Shown piece after piece: positions 15,001 to 18,000 of a DNA stretch of 64,000 nucleotides. The stretch is from the NCBI RefSeq assembly GCF_056712565.1, contig NZ_CM160072.1. One strand, written 5' to 3'. Made by a program: the position numbers. How positions within the stretch are numbered: position 1 is the stretch's first letter; the number at the start of each line of letters is the position of its first letter.

Positions 15001-18000
15001 TGTTCAGTACGCAGCCGCGAACGCTGTACGATCTGCTCGACGTTCGCGCATTACTGGAGGGCGAATCGGCAAGGCTGGCGGCAACGCTGGGAACCCAGGC
15101 TGATTTTGTTGTGATAACCCGCTGTTATGAAAAAATGCTCGCCGCCAGTGAGAACAACAAAGAGATTTCGCTGATCGAACATGCGCAGTTGGATCACGCT
15201 TTCCATCTCGCCATTTGTCAGGCTTCTCACAATCAGGTGCTGGTGTTTACGCTGCAATCATTGACCGACCTGATGTTTAATTCGGTGTTTGCCAGCGTAA
15301 ATAATCTCTACCATCGACCACAGCAAAAAAAGCAGATCGATCGCCAGCATGCGCGGATCTACAACGCGGTGTTGCAGCGGCTGCCGCACGTTGCCCAGCG
15401 CGCAGCACGCGATCATGTGCGGACCGTGAAAAAGAATCTCCACGATATCGAGCTGGAAGGCCACCATTTGATTCGCTCGGCGGTGCCGCTGGAGATGAAG
15501 CAGGGGTGACTGCCATCAAATCTGCTTTTCATACAATCGGTAACGCTTGTACGGCTCCGCCCCAATGCGTTCCAGCATGTTATTCATGCCTGTATTGGTT
15601 TCGAGGATCCATGACATTTCCAGCGCATCGATCTTCCGGCGGGCAAACGGATCGTGTAAGGCTTCAATCAATAACAGCGCAATCACCGGGCCGATGCGGC
15701 TGAACTGATACTCGTCCCGCACGCCCATCAGCGGCACTCGCGCAGTTCGCACACCGCTGACTTTCAAACGCCACAGCAATTTTGCCCAGCCGAAGGGAAA
15801 GAGCGATCCGTTCAGATCGACAATCGCCTCGTTGATGTTCGGCAAGCCAACAATAAACGCGCAGGGTGCAGAATCAATCTCAGCGATGTAGATCATATCG
15901 TCCGGCACCAGATATTTAAGTTGATCGCCCATGGTCGCGAATTCATGTTCGGTAAACGGCACAAATCCCCAGTTGTGCTGCCAGCCAGAATTGAAAATCT
16001 CACGCAGGATCTGCATATCTTCGGCAAACCGCTGGCGATTGATGCAGCGAATGGTCACTTTTTTGCGCACCTGATCCATCAGTTTTTTTAGCGCCGGAGA
16101 GAAAGTGAGATCGGTTCGCTGCATCCACCACGCCAGTAAATCAATGCCTTTGTGATAACCCAGTTGTTCAATATGCGCGGCATACCACGGTTTGCCGTGT
16201 GGCATCATCGCACAGGGCGGAGTGTCAAAACCTTCAATCAGTAATCCGCTTTCCTGATTGATATTCAGGCTGAAAGGCCCGCTGATCTTACTTGCACCTT
16301 GTGACTTCAACCACGCTTCCGCTGTACCAAACAACGCGGCAAAAACCTGCGGATCATCAATGGAGTCAATCATGCCGAAATGACCGGTATCTTCACCGTA
16401 ACGCTCACGGTGCAAGGTATCGATTTGCGCGGTAATCCGCCCGACTATCTGCCCGGCTTTTTTTGCTACCCACGCCTGCCAGATGATATGGTCCGTCCCC
16501 GGATTCTTCGCAGACAAATGCTCGCTGCGTTCAATGAATAAAGGGGGTATCCAGTTTGGATCATCGGGATAAAGTGATGACGGAAAAGCGATAAATGCCT
16601 TAAGGTCTTTTTTATTAATTACTTTTTCAATTTTAATCATCAGCAGATCGCATTCCATATCTCTGTGGATAACAAATAATTAACGGTGAAAAACAGGTTG
16701 CAACAGCAACGAACGGCATCTTAATAATCAACCCAATGAATACAAACAAAGAATAAATAGTATTTATTAATGATTACGATAAGGTCAAAGACTACACAGA
16801 AGCGCCACAATGCCTCTTGTCGATTTAAGGCGACCGGACAAGGCTCCTTCTTAATATATTCACAAATTAAATATCATTCACAATAAAAACAAAAAAGCCA
16901 AACTTATTATTTAAATCAATGTTCATTTTCACACCGATGAAAATACTATCTCATTTATCTTTTATGCCTATATAATCCACCGCATTATTGTCATTTTATT
17001 TTTGATATCCAATTTTTTCGTGGTGTATATGTCTAATAAAATCTTTACGCATTCCCTACCTATGCGCTATGCCGATTTTCCAACGCTGGTTGATGCTTTG
17101 GACTACGCCGCTCTGAGTAGCGCCGGAATGAATTTTTATGACAGACGTTGCCAACTTGAAGATCAACTGGAATATCAGACGTTAAAAGCGCGTGCCGAAG
17201 CTGGTGCGAAAAGGTTGTTATCGCTGAACCTGAAAAAAGGCGATCGCGTGGCGCTGATTGCCGAAACGAGTAGCGGGTTTGTAGAGGCTTTTTTTGCCTG
17301 CCAGTATGCCGGCTTAGTCGCCGTCCCGTTGGCGATTCCAATGGGCGTAGGTCAGCGGGATTCCTGGAGCGCCAAACTGCAGGGTTTACTGGCAAGTTGC
17401 CAGCCCGCAGCCATTATCACTGGTGATGAGTGGTTGCCACTGGTCAATGCCGCGACGCATAACAACAACCCCGAATTACATGTTTTAAGCCACGCCTGGT
17501 TTAAGGCATTACCGGAAGCCGATGTTGTGCTCCAGCGTCCAGTTCCAAACGATATCGCCTACCTCCAGTACACCTCCGGCAGCACCCGTTTTCCCCGTGG
17601 CGTCATTATCACCCATCACGAAGTGATGGCTAATCTACGTGCTATAAGCCACGATGGGATTAAATTACGCCCTGGCGACCGCTGCGTCTCCTGGCTGCCT
17701 TTCTACCATGATATGGGACTGGTCGGCTTTCTCCTGACCCCCGTCGCCACGCAGCTTTCAGTAGATTATTTGCGCACTCAGGATTTTGCCATGCGTCCTC
17801 TGCAATGGCTTAAATTGATCAGTAAAAATCGTGGCACCGTTTCCGTTGCACCGCCGTTTGGCTATGAATTGTGCCAGCGCCGCGTGAATGAAAAAGATCT
17901 CGCTGAACTGGATCTTTCCTGCTGGCGCGTCGCTGGTATTGGCGCAGAACCCATATCCGCAGAACAACTCCATCAATTCGCTGAATGTTTCCGTCAGGTT

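What the first reader, a model, noticed from the sequence alone, without database searches (positions are those of the whole stretch)
16659..17028. Long AT-rich divergent control region between yghO and the biosynthetic operon
The 370-bp spacer is strikingly AT-rich (runs such as caataaaaacaaaaaagccaaacttattatttaaatcaatgttcattttcac) and contains a near-consensus -10-like tatataat at about 16967-16974. This is the profile of H-NS-silenced, horizontally acquired promoters. The locus may therefore be cryptic under laboratory conditions, which would explain why its product has not been noticed.
Basis: partly seen in the sequence, partly recalled or inferred. Interest (0 to 1): 0.4.

Follow-up and report, generated by a model that had tools for sequence, protein, structure and literature searches.

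The report
Promoter spacer of E. coli sphingolipid genes
This AT-rich 370-bp gap is the ordinary two-way promoter region of E. coli's already-described sphingolipid-synthesis genes; its composition is compatible with H-NS silencing, but nothing here shows that, and its only notable feature is a 90-bp stretch next to the operon that hardly varies among E. coli strains.

Summary
Window 16659-17028 is a 370-bp, 31% GC spacer between divergent yghO and a four-gene operon, and TATATAAT sits at 16969-16976, 2 bp from the stated position.

It is not exceptional. It is one of three such AT islands in the 64 kb. A TATAAT is expected by chance (P=0.40 on one strand), and no promoter score beats composition-matched shuffles.

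The flanking genes are the known E. coli sphingolipid genes: yghO (aca) and aasR-epi-acpR-spt. They were characterised biochemically in BL21 (PMC9386255), so the pathway has been noticed.

H-NS silencing is compatible with composition only. The H-NS high-affinity motif is not enriched and I found no ChIP or hns-mutant data. Recent horizontal origin is not supported: gene GC is 0.41-0.54 and the locus is in 76% of complete E. coli genomes. K-12 lost it with an IS5.

New here: the 90 bp next to aasR (16939-17028, including TATAAT) are nearly invariant across Escherichia, while the other 255 bp drift at the synonymous rate. This points to a constrained, probably regulated, aasR promoter and leader.

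Relatives carry a perfect PhoP box in this spacer; E. coli does not.

Verdict: an ordinary, uncharacterised promoter region.

The parts
16659..17028 (.). Whole divergent intergenic spacer between yghO and aasR: 370 bp, GC 31.1%, no annotated feature.
   Evidence: 'annotated features under the match: none' in all listed genomes.
15516..16658 (-). yghO. This is 'aca', the predicted N-acyltransferase of dihydroceramide synthesis.
   Evidence: RefSeq annotation. PMC9386255 Fig. 9 legend lists 'aca... yghO ECD_02850'. There is no Pfam hit.
17029..21116 (+). Operon aasR (17029-18753, fatty acyl-AMP ligase / acyl-AcpR synthetase), epi/cerR-like reductase (18750-19664), acpR (19696-19944) and spt (19944-21116).
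   Evidence: Pfam hits AMP-binding, Epimerase, PP-binding and Aminotran_1_2. RefSeq names. Function of the BL21 orthologues ECD_02851-02854 in PMC9386255. Overlapping or closely spaced reading frames.
16939..17028 (+). Nearly invariant aasR-proximal block: core promoter plus leader. The conserved zone extends more loosely back to 16914.
   Evidence: 3 variable columns in 90 bp across 10 Escherichia lineages, against 4-16 variable columns per 20 bp (7-16 in all but one bin) in the rest of the spacer upstream of 16919. The wider 16914-17028 zone has 5/115 to 6/115 differences from the most distant lineages, against 24-29% at 4-fold sites of the flanking genes (binomial p 1e-6 to 1e-10). The block is 100% identical in 2943 of 4145 E. 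coli genomes; a central 90-bp control stretch is identical in only 176 of 4127.
16971..16976 (+). Consensus -10 hexamer TATAAT, inside TATATAAT (16969-16976). Proposed -10 of the aasR promoter, with a predicted start near 16983.
   Evidence: Invariant in all 10 lineages. A related sequence, TTTTATGACAATATAAC, occupies the same position in Pseudocitrobacter. Not significant by chance statistics alone.
16948..16953 (+). Best-placed -35 (17-bp spacing): ATCTCA, only 3 of 6 matches. There is no TG extension before the -10.
   Evidence: sequence. This implies a weak or activator-dependent promoter (inference).
16983..17028 (+). Predicted 46-nt U-rich leader of aasR, with a weak Shine-Dalgarno sequence (GGTG, 3 nt from the ATG). 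The start codon is ambiguous: GTG 17020/17023, ATG 17029, or ATG 17062 as annotated in some genomes.
   Evidence: Folding is not significant (z = -1.64).
16847..16913 (.). Most AT-rich tract (17.9% GC, with A5/A6 runs), about -136 to -70 from the predicted aasR start. It is a candidate UP-like or curved segment, or a nucleoid-protein (H-NS, Fis, IHF) binding segment.
   Evidence: The role is inferred from position only.
16659..16913 (.). yghO-proximal 255 bp. These evolve at about the synonymous rate but stay near 30% GC in every lineage. They include a single-copy 61-bp GC-richer island (16786-16846, 52% GC).
   Evidence: 68/247 and 82/240 differences in the two most distant lineages, against 24-29% at 4-fold sites. 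Spacer GC is 0.287-0.322 in the four other Escherichia lineages sampled. Single copy per genome.
16853..16881 (-). Candidate yghO promoter 1: GTGAAT-17-TATATT. Predicted start near 16846, leader about 188 nt.
   Evidence: Best minus-strand PWM score (10.5). It lies in the best-conserved island of the variable half (16859-16878, 4 of 20 columns variable). The score is below the shuffle mean.
16759..16788 (-). Candidate yghO promoter 2: TTGACC-18-AATACT. Predicted start near 16752, leader about 94 nt. It overlaps the palindrome AATAAATAGTATTTATT (16752-16768).
   Evidence: Its -10 region aligns with the 17-mer AGCATTAAGTGGTAAAA that is conserved in other genera. The -35 reads CTGACC in most lineages.
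16984..17011 (-). Candidate opposite-strand promoter inside the invariant block: TGGATA-16-AATAAT. It would give yghO a leader of about 318 nt and would overlap the aasR promoter.
   Evidence: 9 of 12 matches; score 9.4. The 338-nt putative leader has no significant fold (z = +0.63).
16664..16672 (-). Perfect DnaA-box 9-mer TTATCCACA, 6 nt upstream of the yghO ATG.
   Evidence: Sequence. It reads TTACCCACA in 4 of 10 lineages. About 0.5 such 9-mers are expected per 64 kb on both strands, so it is probably chance.

Best explanation
The spacer is the shared, divergent promoter region of the E. coli sphingolipid (dihydroceramide) synthesis genes. yghO/aca is read leftwards and aasR-epi-acpR-spt rightwards. 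The spacer has two parts with different histories.

1. The 90-115 bp next to aasR are under strong purifying selection. They most likely hold the aasR promoter, made of a consensus -10 TATAAT at 16971-16976 and a poor -35, with a start near 16983 and a 46-nt U-rich leader. A perfect -10 with no -35 and no TG extension usually means low basal activity and dependence on an activator or on upstream A/T DNA. The fact that about 90 bp are frozen, rather than 6, argues for further binding sites: an operator, an overlapping opposite-strand promoter, or an sRNA target.

2. The remaining 255 bp towards yghO drift at the neutral rate. Their low GC is what unconstrained E. coli non-coding DNA tends towards under AT-biased mutation. 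They must contain the yghO promoter, for which there are three weak candidates.

What is shown: the anatomy, the conservation contrast and the gene identities. What is inferred: the promoter assignment, the start site and activator dependence. H-NS occupancy is possible on composition grounds but is not needed to explain anything observed.
For: Gene identities and divergent layout: and PMC9386255.

The promoters must be here. yghO and aasR are back to back with no co-oriented upstream gene. The same layout, with a long low-GC spacer of 270-1095 bp, is kept in 40+ species of Enterobacterales and Pseudomonas.

Conservation contrast:
- 3 of 90 columns are variable. 5-6 of 115 differences compare with 24-29% at 4-fold sites, p 1e-6 to 1e-10. 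The distal part shows 27-34% divergence, indistinguishable from the 4-fold rate.
- Population level: 71% against 4% of genomes are identical over 90 bp.

TATAAT is invariant and positionally shared with Pseudocitrobacter.

Weak -35.

No alternative content was found:
- no Rfam family;
- no conserved ORF;
- no significant RNA fold;
- single copy per genome.

Low native output in BL21, despite an intact spacer.
Against: No transcription start, reporter or expression data exist for this spacer, so the -10 assignment rests on conservation alone.

Statistically, the hexamer and every promoter-like match are within chance for this composition.

Recombination visibly shapes divergence in this region. 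E. whittamii differs by only 6% in the distal block but by 27% at 4-fold sites. Part of the contrast between blocks could therefore be mosaic ancestry rather than selection. Against this, the proximal block is conserved relative to both of its flanks in every lineage.

The BL21 evidence for low expression is indirect. It comes from thin-layer chromatography, one medium and 30 C.
Confidence: 0.7

Rival explanations
1. The spacer is a nucleation site for H-NS (and StpA), which coats the AT-rich DNA and silences both promoters of a horizontally acquired locus. The locus is therefore cryptic in the laboratory and is de-repressed by a counter-silencer or by host-like conditions.
For: AT content is 69% over 370 bp, with an 18% GC core at 16847-16913. 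This places it in the lowest 0.6% of 370-bp windows. That H-NS prefers such DNA is established knowledge from genome-wide studies in E. coli and Salmonella published in 2006 (Navarre; Lucchini; Grainger; Oshima), cited from memory.

The cluster has different neighbours in different genera and was not found in the representative genomes of E. albertii, E. fergusonii or Salmonella. It has therefore moved or been lost in the past.

BL21 with an intact spacer makes no detectable product unless the genes are over-expressed.

A consensus -10 in AT-rich DNA is the typical substrate for H-NS occlusion.
Against: There is no occupancy or hns-mutant evidence. Ten literature searches found none. K-12 lacks the spacer.

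The high-affinity motif TCGATAAATT is not enriched.

The flanking genes are not AT-rich (GC 0.41-0.54). H-NS filaments would have only about 370 bp to occupy.

The locus is in 76% of complete E. coli genomes at a fixed site and in sister species. It behaves like old, ameliorated DNA.

Strong purifying selection on the promoter block shows that the promoter is in use. This is compatible with conditional silencing but not with a decaying cryptic locus.

Low GC in the freely drifting 255 bp is explained more simply by mutation bias.
Confidence: 0.35
2. The locus is controlled by a specific envelope or ion-stress regulator, as its relatives appear to be. In E. coli, a two-component regulator such as PhoP, or another activator, binds within the invariant block and switches on sphingolipid synthesis during outer-membrane stress. 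AT-richness is incidental.
For: A perfect PhoP box, TGTTTA-N5-TGTTTA (12 of 12), lies in the same spacer in 11 species of Serratia, Tatumella, Pantoea and Klebsiella indica. The half-sites are conserved and the N5 varies. The chance of this is about 0.001 per spacer. The consensus was checked against the E. coli phoP promoter, GGTTTAtttaaTGTTTA, 12 bp from CATAAT.

The E. coli promoter has a perfect -10 and no -35, which is the usual signature of activator dependence.

About 90 bp are frozen rather than 6.

One half-site-like CATTTA ends 13 bp upstream of TATAAT, where the promoter-proximal PhoP half-site would sit (sequence).
Against: Escherichia has no PhoP box. The best match is 10 of 12, at 16743-16759. 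It occurs in the window lineage only, which is expected by chance in 33% of shuffles.

The 17-mer conserved in other genera is also absent or degenerate in Escherichia.

No regulator gene is part of the cluster.

The identity of any activator is pure conjecture.
Confidence: 0.3
3. The conserved block is a cis-acting RNA element (riboswitch, attenuator or leader peptide) rather than a DNA-level promoter or operator.
For: The predicted leader (16983-17028) is invariant.

A mini-ORF, ATG 16917/16935 to TAA 16971-16973 (MFIFTPMKILSHLSFMPI), can be read in the block (sequence).
Against: No Rfam match even at E <= 1.

The fold of 16983-17070 is not better than shuffles (z = -1.64; 11 of 200 shuffles fold as well).

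The mini-ORF has no Shine-Dalgarno sequence, and its N-terminal half changes non-synonymously between lineages.

Conservation extends about 45-70 bp upstream of the predicted start. That fits a promoter, not an RNA.
Confidence: 0.07

Closest known systems
Sphingolipid (dihydroceramide) gene clusters of Alpha-, Beta- and Gammaproteobacteria: Caulobacter crescentus CC_1154/CC_1162-1165 and E. coli BL21(DE3) ECD_02850-02854 (Padilla-Gomez et al. 2022, PMC9386255)
   Same: The window carries the same five genes in the same order as BL21. The BL21 spacer differs from the window's at about 20 positions, only 2 of them in the conserved block. The spacer studied here is therefore the control region of that described cluster.
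   Different: The paper deals with the enzymes only. Nothing is said about promoters, regulation or native expression. In Caulobacter the acyltransferase gene is not divergently paired with aasR in this way.
H-NS-silenced AT-rich promoters of horizontally acquired genes (for example bgl, proU, the LEE, and the yghJ/sslE-gsp cluster next door); from my own knowledge
   Same: Low GC (31%), A-tracts, a good -10 embedded in AT-rich DNA, and apparently low expression in the laboratory.
   Different: The adjacent genes have normal GC. The locus is near-core in E. coli. There is no enriched nucleation motif, and no occupancy or de-repression data exist. One part of the spacer is under strong purifying selection.
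Bidirectional promoters arising from the near-symmetry of the -10 element in AT-rich DNA (Warman et al. 2021, Nature Microbiology; from my own knowledge)
   Same: TATATAAT is nearly palindromic. A minus-strand promoter-like site (TGGATA-16-AATAAT) sits 8 bp away inside the same invariant block. Divergent starts a few bp apart are therefore conceivable.
   Different: No start sites are mapped. The minus-strand hexamer is a separate one. yghO would then need a 318-nt unstructured leader that drifts neutrally.
PhoP-activated promoters with a (T/G)GTTTA-N5-(T/G)GTTTA box (phoP, mgtA and others)
   Same: Orthologous spacers in Serratia, Tatumella, Pantoea and K. indica carry a perfect box. The function, outer-membrane lipid remodelling, fits the regulon.
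   Different: The E. coli spacer lacks the box. In the relatives the box is not at the canonical 12 bp from a recognisable -10.

Membership tests
H-NS-silenced xenogeneic promoter region | DNA markedly more AT-rich than the genome over a few hundred bp | tested here: met
   GC is 31.1% against 50.7% for the window. The spacer is in the lowest 0.6% of 370-bp windows. Two other spacers in the window are equally AT-rich.
H-NS-silenced xenogeneic promoter region | High-affinity nucleation motif (TCGATAAATT-like) enriched | tested here: not met
   7 sites with up to 3 mismatches, against 9.3 +/- 2.9 in dinucleotide shuffles. None has fewer than 3 mismatches. The motif is quoted from memory (Lang et al. 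2007).
H-NS-silenced xenogeneic promoter region | Adjacent genes of foreign (AT-rich) composition and sporadic distribution | tested here: not met
   Gene GC is 0.41-0.54 and GC3 is 0.49-0.61. The spacer is in 4136 of 5426 complete E. coli genomes, and the locus sits next to glcC in four Escherichia lineages that GTDB treats as separate species, three of them not named E. coli. An older transfer between genera is likely.
H-NS-silenced xenogeneic promoter region | H-NS occupancy in vivo (ChIP) and de-repression in hns mutants | not testable with these tools
   No data were found in 10 literature searches (for example). K-12 lacks the spacer.
Sigma-70 promoter | -10 hexamer close to TATAAT | tested here: met
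   TATAAT at 16971-16976.
Sigma-70 promoter | -35 hexamer close to TTGACA at 16-18 bp, or a TG extension | tested here: not met
   The best -35 is ATCTCA (3 of 6) at 17 bp, with no TG. The tool scan found no plus-strand site.
Sigma-70 promoter | Match stronger than expected for the composition | tested here: not met
   P(TATAAT on this strand) = 0.40. Best PWM scores are below the shuffle mean.
Sigma-70 promoter | Evolutionary conservation of the elements | tested here: met
   The hexamer and its surroundings are invariant in 10 lineages. The 90-bp block is identical in 71% of E. coli genomes.
Sigma-70 promoter | Mapped transcription start | not testable with these tools
   No 5' end data were available.
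Proteobacterial sphingolipid synthesis cluster (aasR, acpR, spt, epi/cerR, aca/bCerS) | All five genes present and adjacent | tested here: met
   Pfam domains, RefSeq names including 'serine palmitoyltransferase', and a one-to-one match with BL21 ECD_02850-02854.
Proteobacterial sphingolipid synthesis cluster (aasR, acpR, spt, epi/cerR, aca/bCerS) | Enzymes make 3-oxo-sphinganine | not tested
   Shown for the BL21 orthologues by others (PMC9386255), not for this strain. In the deposited ATCC 11775 genome aasR has a stop codon; the window's copy is intact.
PhoP-regulated promoter | (T/G)GTTTA-N5-(T/G)GTTTA box | tested here: not met
   The best match in the window is 10 of 12, absent from the other Escherichia lineages; chance P = 0.33. 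The box is perfect in 11 related species. Positive control: the phoP promoter.
Known cis-regulatory RNA (Rfam) | Covariance-model match | tested here: not met
   No relevant match at E <= 1. None in 8 orthologous loci at gathering thresholds.

The most novel reading that the evidence does not exclude
The frozen 90-115 bp next to aasR are a dedicated switch. They would hold the operator of an as yet unknown activator or anti-silencer, possibly together with an sRNA-targeted leader. This switch would turn on ceramide synthesis in natural E. coli under a specific host or envelope condition. Most wild E. coli would then conditionally make sphingolipids, a lipid class absent from the K-12-based textbook picture because K-12 deleted the locus with an IS5. 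Escherichia would have replaced the PhoP-box control seen in Serratia, Pantoea and Tatumella with its own.
Probability: 0.25. Interest if true: 0.65.

Novelty: new member of a known kind. Interest (0 to 1): 0.3.

Why it matters
Three quarters of sequenced E. coli carry a complete, selectively maintained ceramide pathway that K-12 lacks, and nobody has reported when it is expressed.

The spacer is where that decision is made. The invariant block (16939-17028) defines the piece of DNA to fuse to a reporter or use as bait for the regulator.

The perfect PhoP boxes in relatives give a concrete first condition to test: low Mg2+, antimicrobial peptides or acid.

As a sequence feature, however, the spacer is an ordinary AT-rich divergent promoter region. 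The H-NS idea is a generic expectation for any such DNA rather than a discovery.

Tried and rejected
1. Known RNA families. Rfam at E <= 1 over 16300-17400 gave only a spurious plant miRNA hit. Eight orthologous loci at gathering thresholds gave nothing.

2. Small proteins. The 21-38 aa ORFs in the spacer are not conserved. There is no shared ORF in 43 orthologous spacers.

3. RNA structure. The aasR leader has z = -1.64 and a putative 338-nt yghO leader z = +0.63.

4. Cross-genus sequence conservation of the E. coli spacer. BLAST found nothing convincing outside Escherichia. Only a short promoter-core similarity to Pseudocitrobacter and a degenerate positional match to the 17-mer were seen.

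5. Palindrome ATTTTCA-N6-TGAAAAT (16924-16943) as an operator. The left arm differs in 5 of 10 lineages.

6. Palindrome AATAAATAGTATTTATT (16752-16768). It is kept in most but not all lineages and lies in the neutrally drifting half; its role is undecided.

7. Repeated or mobile element for the GC-richer island 16786-16846. It is single copy per genome, and its inverted repeat is not conserved.

8. H-NS motif enrichment: none.

9. PhoP box in E. coli: none beyond chance.

10. By-eye comparison with CRP, FNR, Fur, FadR, RcsAB, CpxR and IHF consensus sequences recalled from memory. No convincing site; not reported as evidence.

11. Literature. Searches for yghO, yghQ plus H-NS, sphingolipid plus H-NS, the ETEC H10407 ChIP-seq supplements, BL21 locus tags, bCerS plus E. 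coli, and PhoP plus sphingolipid found nothing on regulation of this locus.
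Full report
WHERE THE WINDOW COMES FROM

The window is the reverse complement of E. coli ATCC 11775 (NZ_CP033092.2, 723981-787980), with 7 single-base differences.

The finding lies between yghO (15516-16658, minus strand) and a four-gene plus-strand unit:
- a fatty acyl-AMP ligase (17029-18753);
- an NAD-dependent epimerase-family protein (18750-19664);
- an acyl carrier protein (19696-19944);
- serine palmitoyltransferase (19944-21116).

CHECKING THE OBSERVATION

The spacer is 16659-17028, 370 bp and 31.1% GC, against 50.7% for the window. The quoted run is at 16881-16932. TATATAAT is at 16969-16976, 2 bp from the stated position. The description is therefore correct.

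How unusual is it?
- Only 0.6% of 370-bp windows in the 64 kb are as AT-rich. But there are three such islands; the others are the sslE-glcA and pitB-gss spacers.
- Five of 24 intergenic spacers of at least 50 bp have GC at or below 31.6%.
- A TATAAT on the given strand appears in 40% of dinucleotide-preserving shuffles of the spacer. The 8-mer appears in 9%.
- With a rough sigma-70 weight matrix, every candidate promoter on either strand (scores 8-10.5) falls below the mean best score of shuffled spacers (11.6 +/- 1.4).
- The tool's scan found no plus-strand site and two minus-strand sites. This is no more than in shuffles.

So the AT-richness is real but ordinary for a long promoter-bearing spacer. 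The -10-like motif is not evidence in itself.

WHAT THE FLANKING GENES ARE

The locus is the E. coli sphingolipid cluster. Padilla-Gomez et al. 2022 (PMC9386255) list the BL21(DE3) genes as follows:
- ECD_02850 (yghO, 'aca', N-acyltransferase);
- ECD_02851 (aasR, acyl-AcpR synthetase);
- ECD_02852 (epi, reductase);
- ECD_02853 (acpR);
- ECD_02854 (spt).

They show that AasR, AcpR and SPT from E. coli together make 3-oxo-sphinganine. BL21 has the same gene order as the window. The pathway has therefore been noticed. What has not been studied is its regulation.

DISTRIBUTION

- The spacer is present in 4136 of 5426 complete E. coli genomes. It is always single copy, and nothing is annotated under it.
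- K-12 lacks it. In BW25113 the match stops at window 16618, and an IS5 replaces everything from the 5' end of yghO to the middle of yghQ.
- A scan of one genome per species found yghO paired divergently with aasR-epi-acpR-spt in 40+ species, including three non-coli Escherichia species, many Enterobacterales and two pseudomonads.
- The spacer in these species is always long (270-1095 bp) and always of lower GC than its flanks.
- Outside Escherichia the neighbours differ, and glcC is adjacent only in Escherichia.
- The representative genomes of E. albertii, E. fergusonii and Salmonella gave no hit. Caveat: the scan needs exact peptide words.
- The cluster genes have ordinary composition: GC 0.41-0.54 and GC3 0.49-0.61.

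The cluster has thus moved between lineages in the past. In E. coli, however, it is old, fixed in place and ameliorated. It is not a recent AT-rich island.

ANATOMY OF THE SPACER

No Rfam family matches. No ORF is conserved. Neither putative leader folds better than shuffles.

I aligned ten Escherichia lineages: six E. coli, E. whittamii, two unnamed Escherichia species and a divergent E. coli. The alignment shows a sharp split.

The aasR-proximal block:
- 16939-17028 has 3 variable columns in 90.
- The wider block 16914-17028 differs from the most distant lineages at 5-6 of 115 positions. Four-fold degenerate sites of yghO and aasR differ at 24-29% in the same comparisons (binomial p 1e-6 to 1e-10).

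The yghO-proximal part:
- The remaining 255 bp differ at 27-34% in those lineages. This is indistinguishable from the 4-fold rate.
- They nevertheless stay at about 29-32% GC everywhere.

The same contrast holds across the population. The 90-bp block is 100% identical in 2943 of 4145 genomes, whereas a central 90-bp stretch is identical in only 176 of 4127.

Caveat: recombination affects this region. E. whittamii is unexpectedly close in the distal block. Even so, the proximal block is conserved relative to both of its flanks in all lineages.

WHAT THE CONSERVED BLOCK CONTAINS

It contains TATAAT (16971-16976). The best -35 is ATCTCA (3 of 6), and there is no TG extension. The predicted start is near 16983, with a 46-nt U-rich leader and a weak Shine-Dalgarno sequence.

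Pseudocitrobacter has a recognisably related core, TTTTATGACAATATAAC, at the same place.

A minus-strand promoter-like site (TGGATA-16-AATAAT, 17011 to 16984) also lies inside the block.

Upstream of the block is an 18% GC tract (16847-16913).

The yghO promoter is not identified. The candidates are:
- GTGAAT-17-TATATT (16881 to 16853), in the best-conserved island of the variable half;
- TTGACC-18-AATACT (16788 to 16759);
- the site inside the invariant block.

HOW IT MOST LIKELY WORKS

This is a divergent promoter region. Shown: the gene layout, the lack of other content and the strong constraint on the aasR-proximal 90-115 bp.

Inferred: TATAAT is the -10 of the aasR operon promoter. Because it lacks a -35, the promoter is weak unless helped by an activator or by upstream A/T DNA. 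The extra conserved bases are operator or leader functions.

The low GC of the freely drifting 255 bp needs no special explanation. Unconstrained E. coli DNA drifts towards low GC under AT-biased mutation. This is established knowledge (Hershberg and Petrov 2010), cited from memory.

There is indirect evidence that native expression is low. BL21(DE3) has an intact spacer, with about 20 differences from the window and 2 in the block. Yet it shows no 3-oxo-sphinganine with empty vectors or with SPT alone over-expressed.

THE H-NS HYPOTHESIS

H-NS is compatible with the composition, and any 69% AT stretch is a plausible H-NS target. I found nothing beyond that:
- the high-affinity motif is not enriched;
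- the adjacent genes are not AT-rich;
- no ChIP or hns-mutant data turned up in the literature available to me;
- K-12 maps cannot cover a spacer that K-12 lacks.

Strong purifying selection shows the promoter is in use somewhere. That fits conditional silencing as well as plain regulation, but not decay. I put H-NS involvement at about 0.35.

RELATIVES USE DIFFERENT SIGNALS

Eleven species (seven Serratia, two Tatumella, Pantoea brenneri and Klebsiella indica) carry a perfect PhoP box, TGTTTA-N5-TGTTTA, in the spacer on the aasR-sense strand. The half-sites are conserved and the N5 varies. The chance of this is about 0.001 per spacer. I checked the remembered consensus against the E. coli phoP promoter.

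About 60 bp from the box lies a 17-mer, AGCATTAAGTGGTAAAA. It is conserved in about 26 species, always on the yghO-sense strand and usually about 300 nt upstream of yghO.

Escherichia has neither element. Only a degenerate positional counterpart of the 17-mer exists, at 16749-16771. Escherichia therefore appears to have rebuilt the control region. This makes the identity of its regulator an open question.

VERDICT

It is unproven on H-NS, weak on horizontal origin and wrong on the pathway being unnoticed.

As a feature, this is an ordinary, uncharacterised promoter region of a known gene cluster. It has one useful new property: a sharply delimited, strongly conserved promoter and leader block.

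Noticed in passing
L014:5794-5810, and the equivalent positions in L015, L017-L019, L021, L025, L040, L041, L045, L048 (yghO-aasR spacers of Serratia, Tatumella, K. indica, Pantoea): A perfect PhoP box, TGTTTA-N5-TGTTTA, lies on the aasR-sense strand in 11 species. The N5 varies, and the chance is about 0.001 per spacer. This predicts PhoP/PhoQ control of sphingolipid genes in these genera. I found no report of this. Escherichia lacks the box.
   Followed up: partly
L014:5865-5881 and about 25 other loci (spacer coordinates): A 17-mer, AGCATTAAGTGGTAAAA (0-4 mismatches), is conserved across about 26 Enterobacterales species. It is always on the yghO-sense strand and usually 275-345 nt upstream of yghO. 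It is not a normal -10 because it has no T at the last position. There is no Rfam match. Its function is unknown.
   Followed up: partly
window 17366: The deposited ATCC 11775 genome has TAG here, so RefSeq annotates aasR as a pseudogene with an internal stop. The window has TGG and an intact reading frame. Six other single-base differences from that record lie at 5931, 8652, 11948, 14642, 42372 and 55875.
   Followed up: yes
window 21151-28489: The sphingolipid genes are followed by a second copy of LptF/LptG-type permeases, a YtfJ-family protein, a 278-aa hypothetical protein, the flippase-like YghQ and three P-loop proteins (YghR, YghS, YghT). Subsets of these travel with the cluster in other genera. 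This suggests a dedicated export or head-group system for the lipid.
   Followed up: partly
window 16619 to about 24900 (absent from K-12; L002:8288-9268 is the IS5): K-12 strains replaced the 5' end of yghO, the spacer, the whole aasR-spt operon, the lptFG paralogues and part of yghQ with one IS5. K-12 therefore cannot make this lipid or inform on its regulation.
   Followed up: yes
window 17029 versus 17062: RefSeq genomes disagree on the aasR start: ATG 17029 in Nissle and FDAARGOS_536, and the internal ATG 17062 in BL21, KSC207, W60 and BUCT2930. Other genera conserve the N-terminus from 17029 and extend it 3-5 codons further upstream. The real start is therefore at or just before 17029 (GTG 17020/17023 are possible).
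   Followed up: partly
window 16664-16672 (minus strand): A perfect DnaA-box 9-mer, TTATCCACA, lies 6 nt upstream of the yghO start codon. It reads TTACCCACA in 4 of 10 lineages and is probably chance.
   Followed up: partly
window 5466-6121 and 29890-30478: These are the two other AT islands of the window (370-bp GC at or below 0.33): the sslE-glcA and pitB-gss spacers. They are as AT-rich as the one studied.
   Followed up: no
L049 (Macrococcus sp. DPC7161 contig, 430 bp): A 430-bp, low-coverage contig in a Macrococcus assembly encodes 97% identical E. coli YghO. It is almost certainly contamination of that assembly.
   Followed up: no
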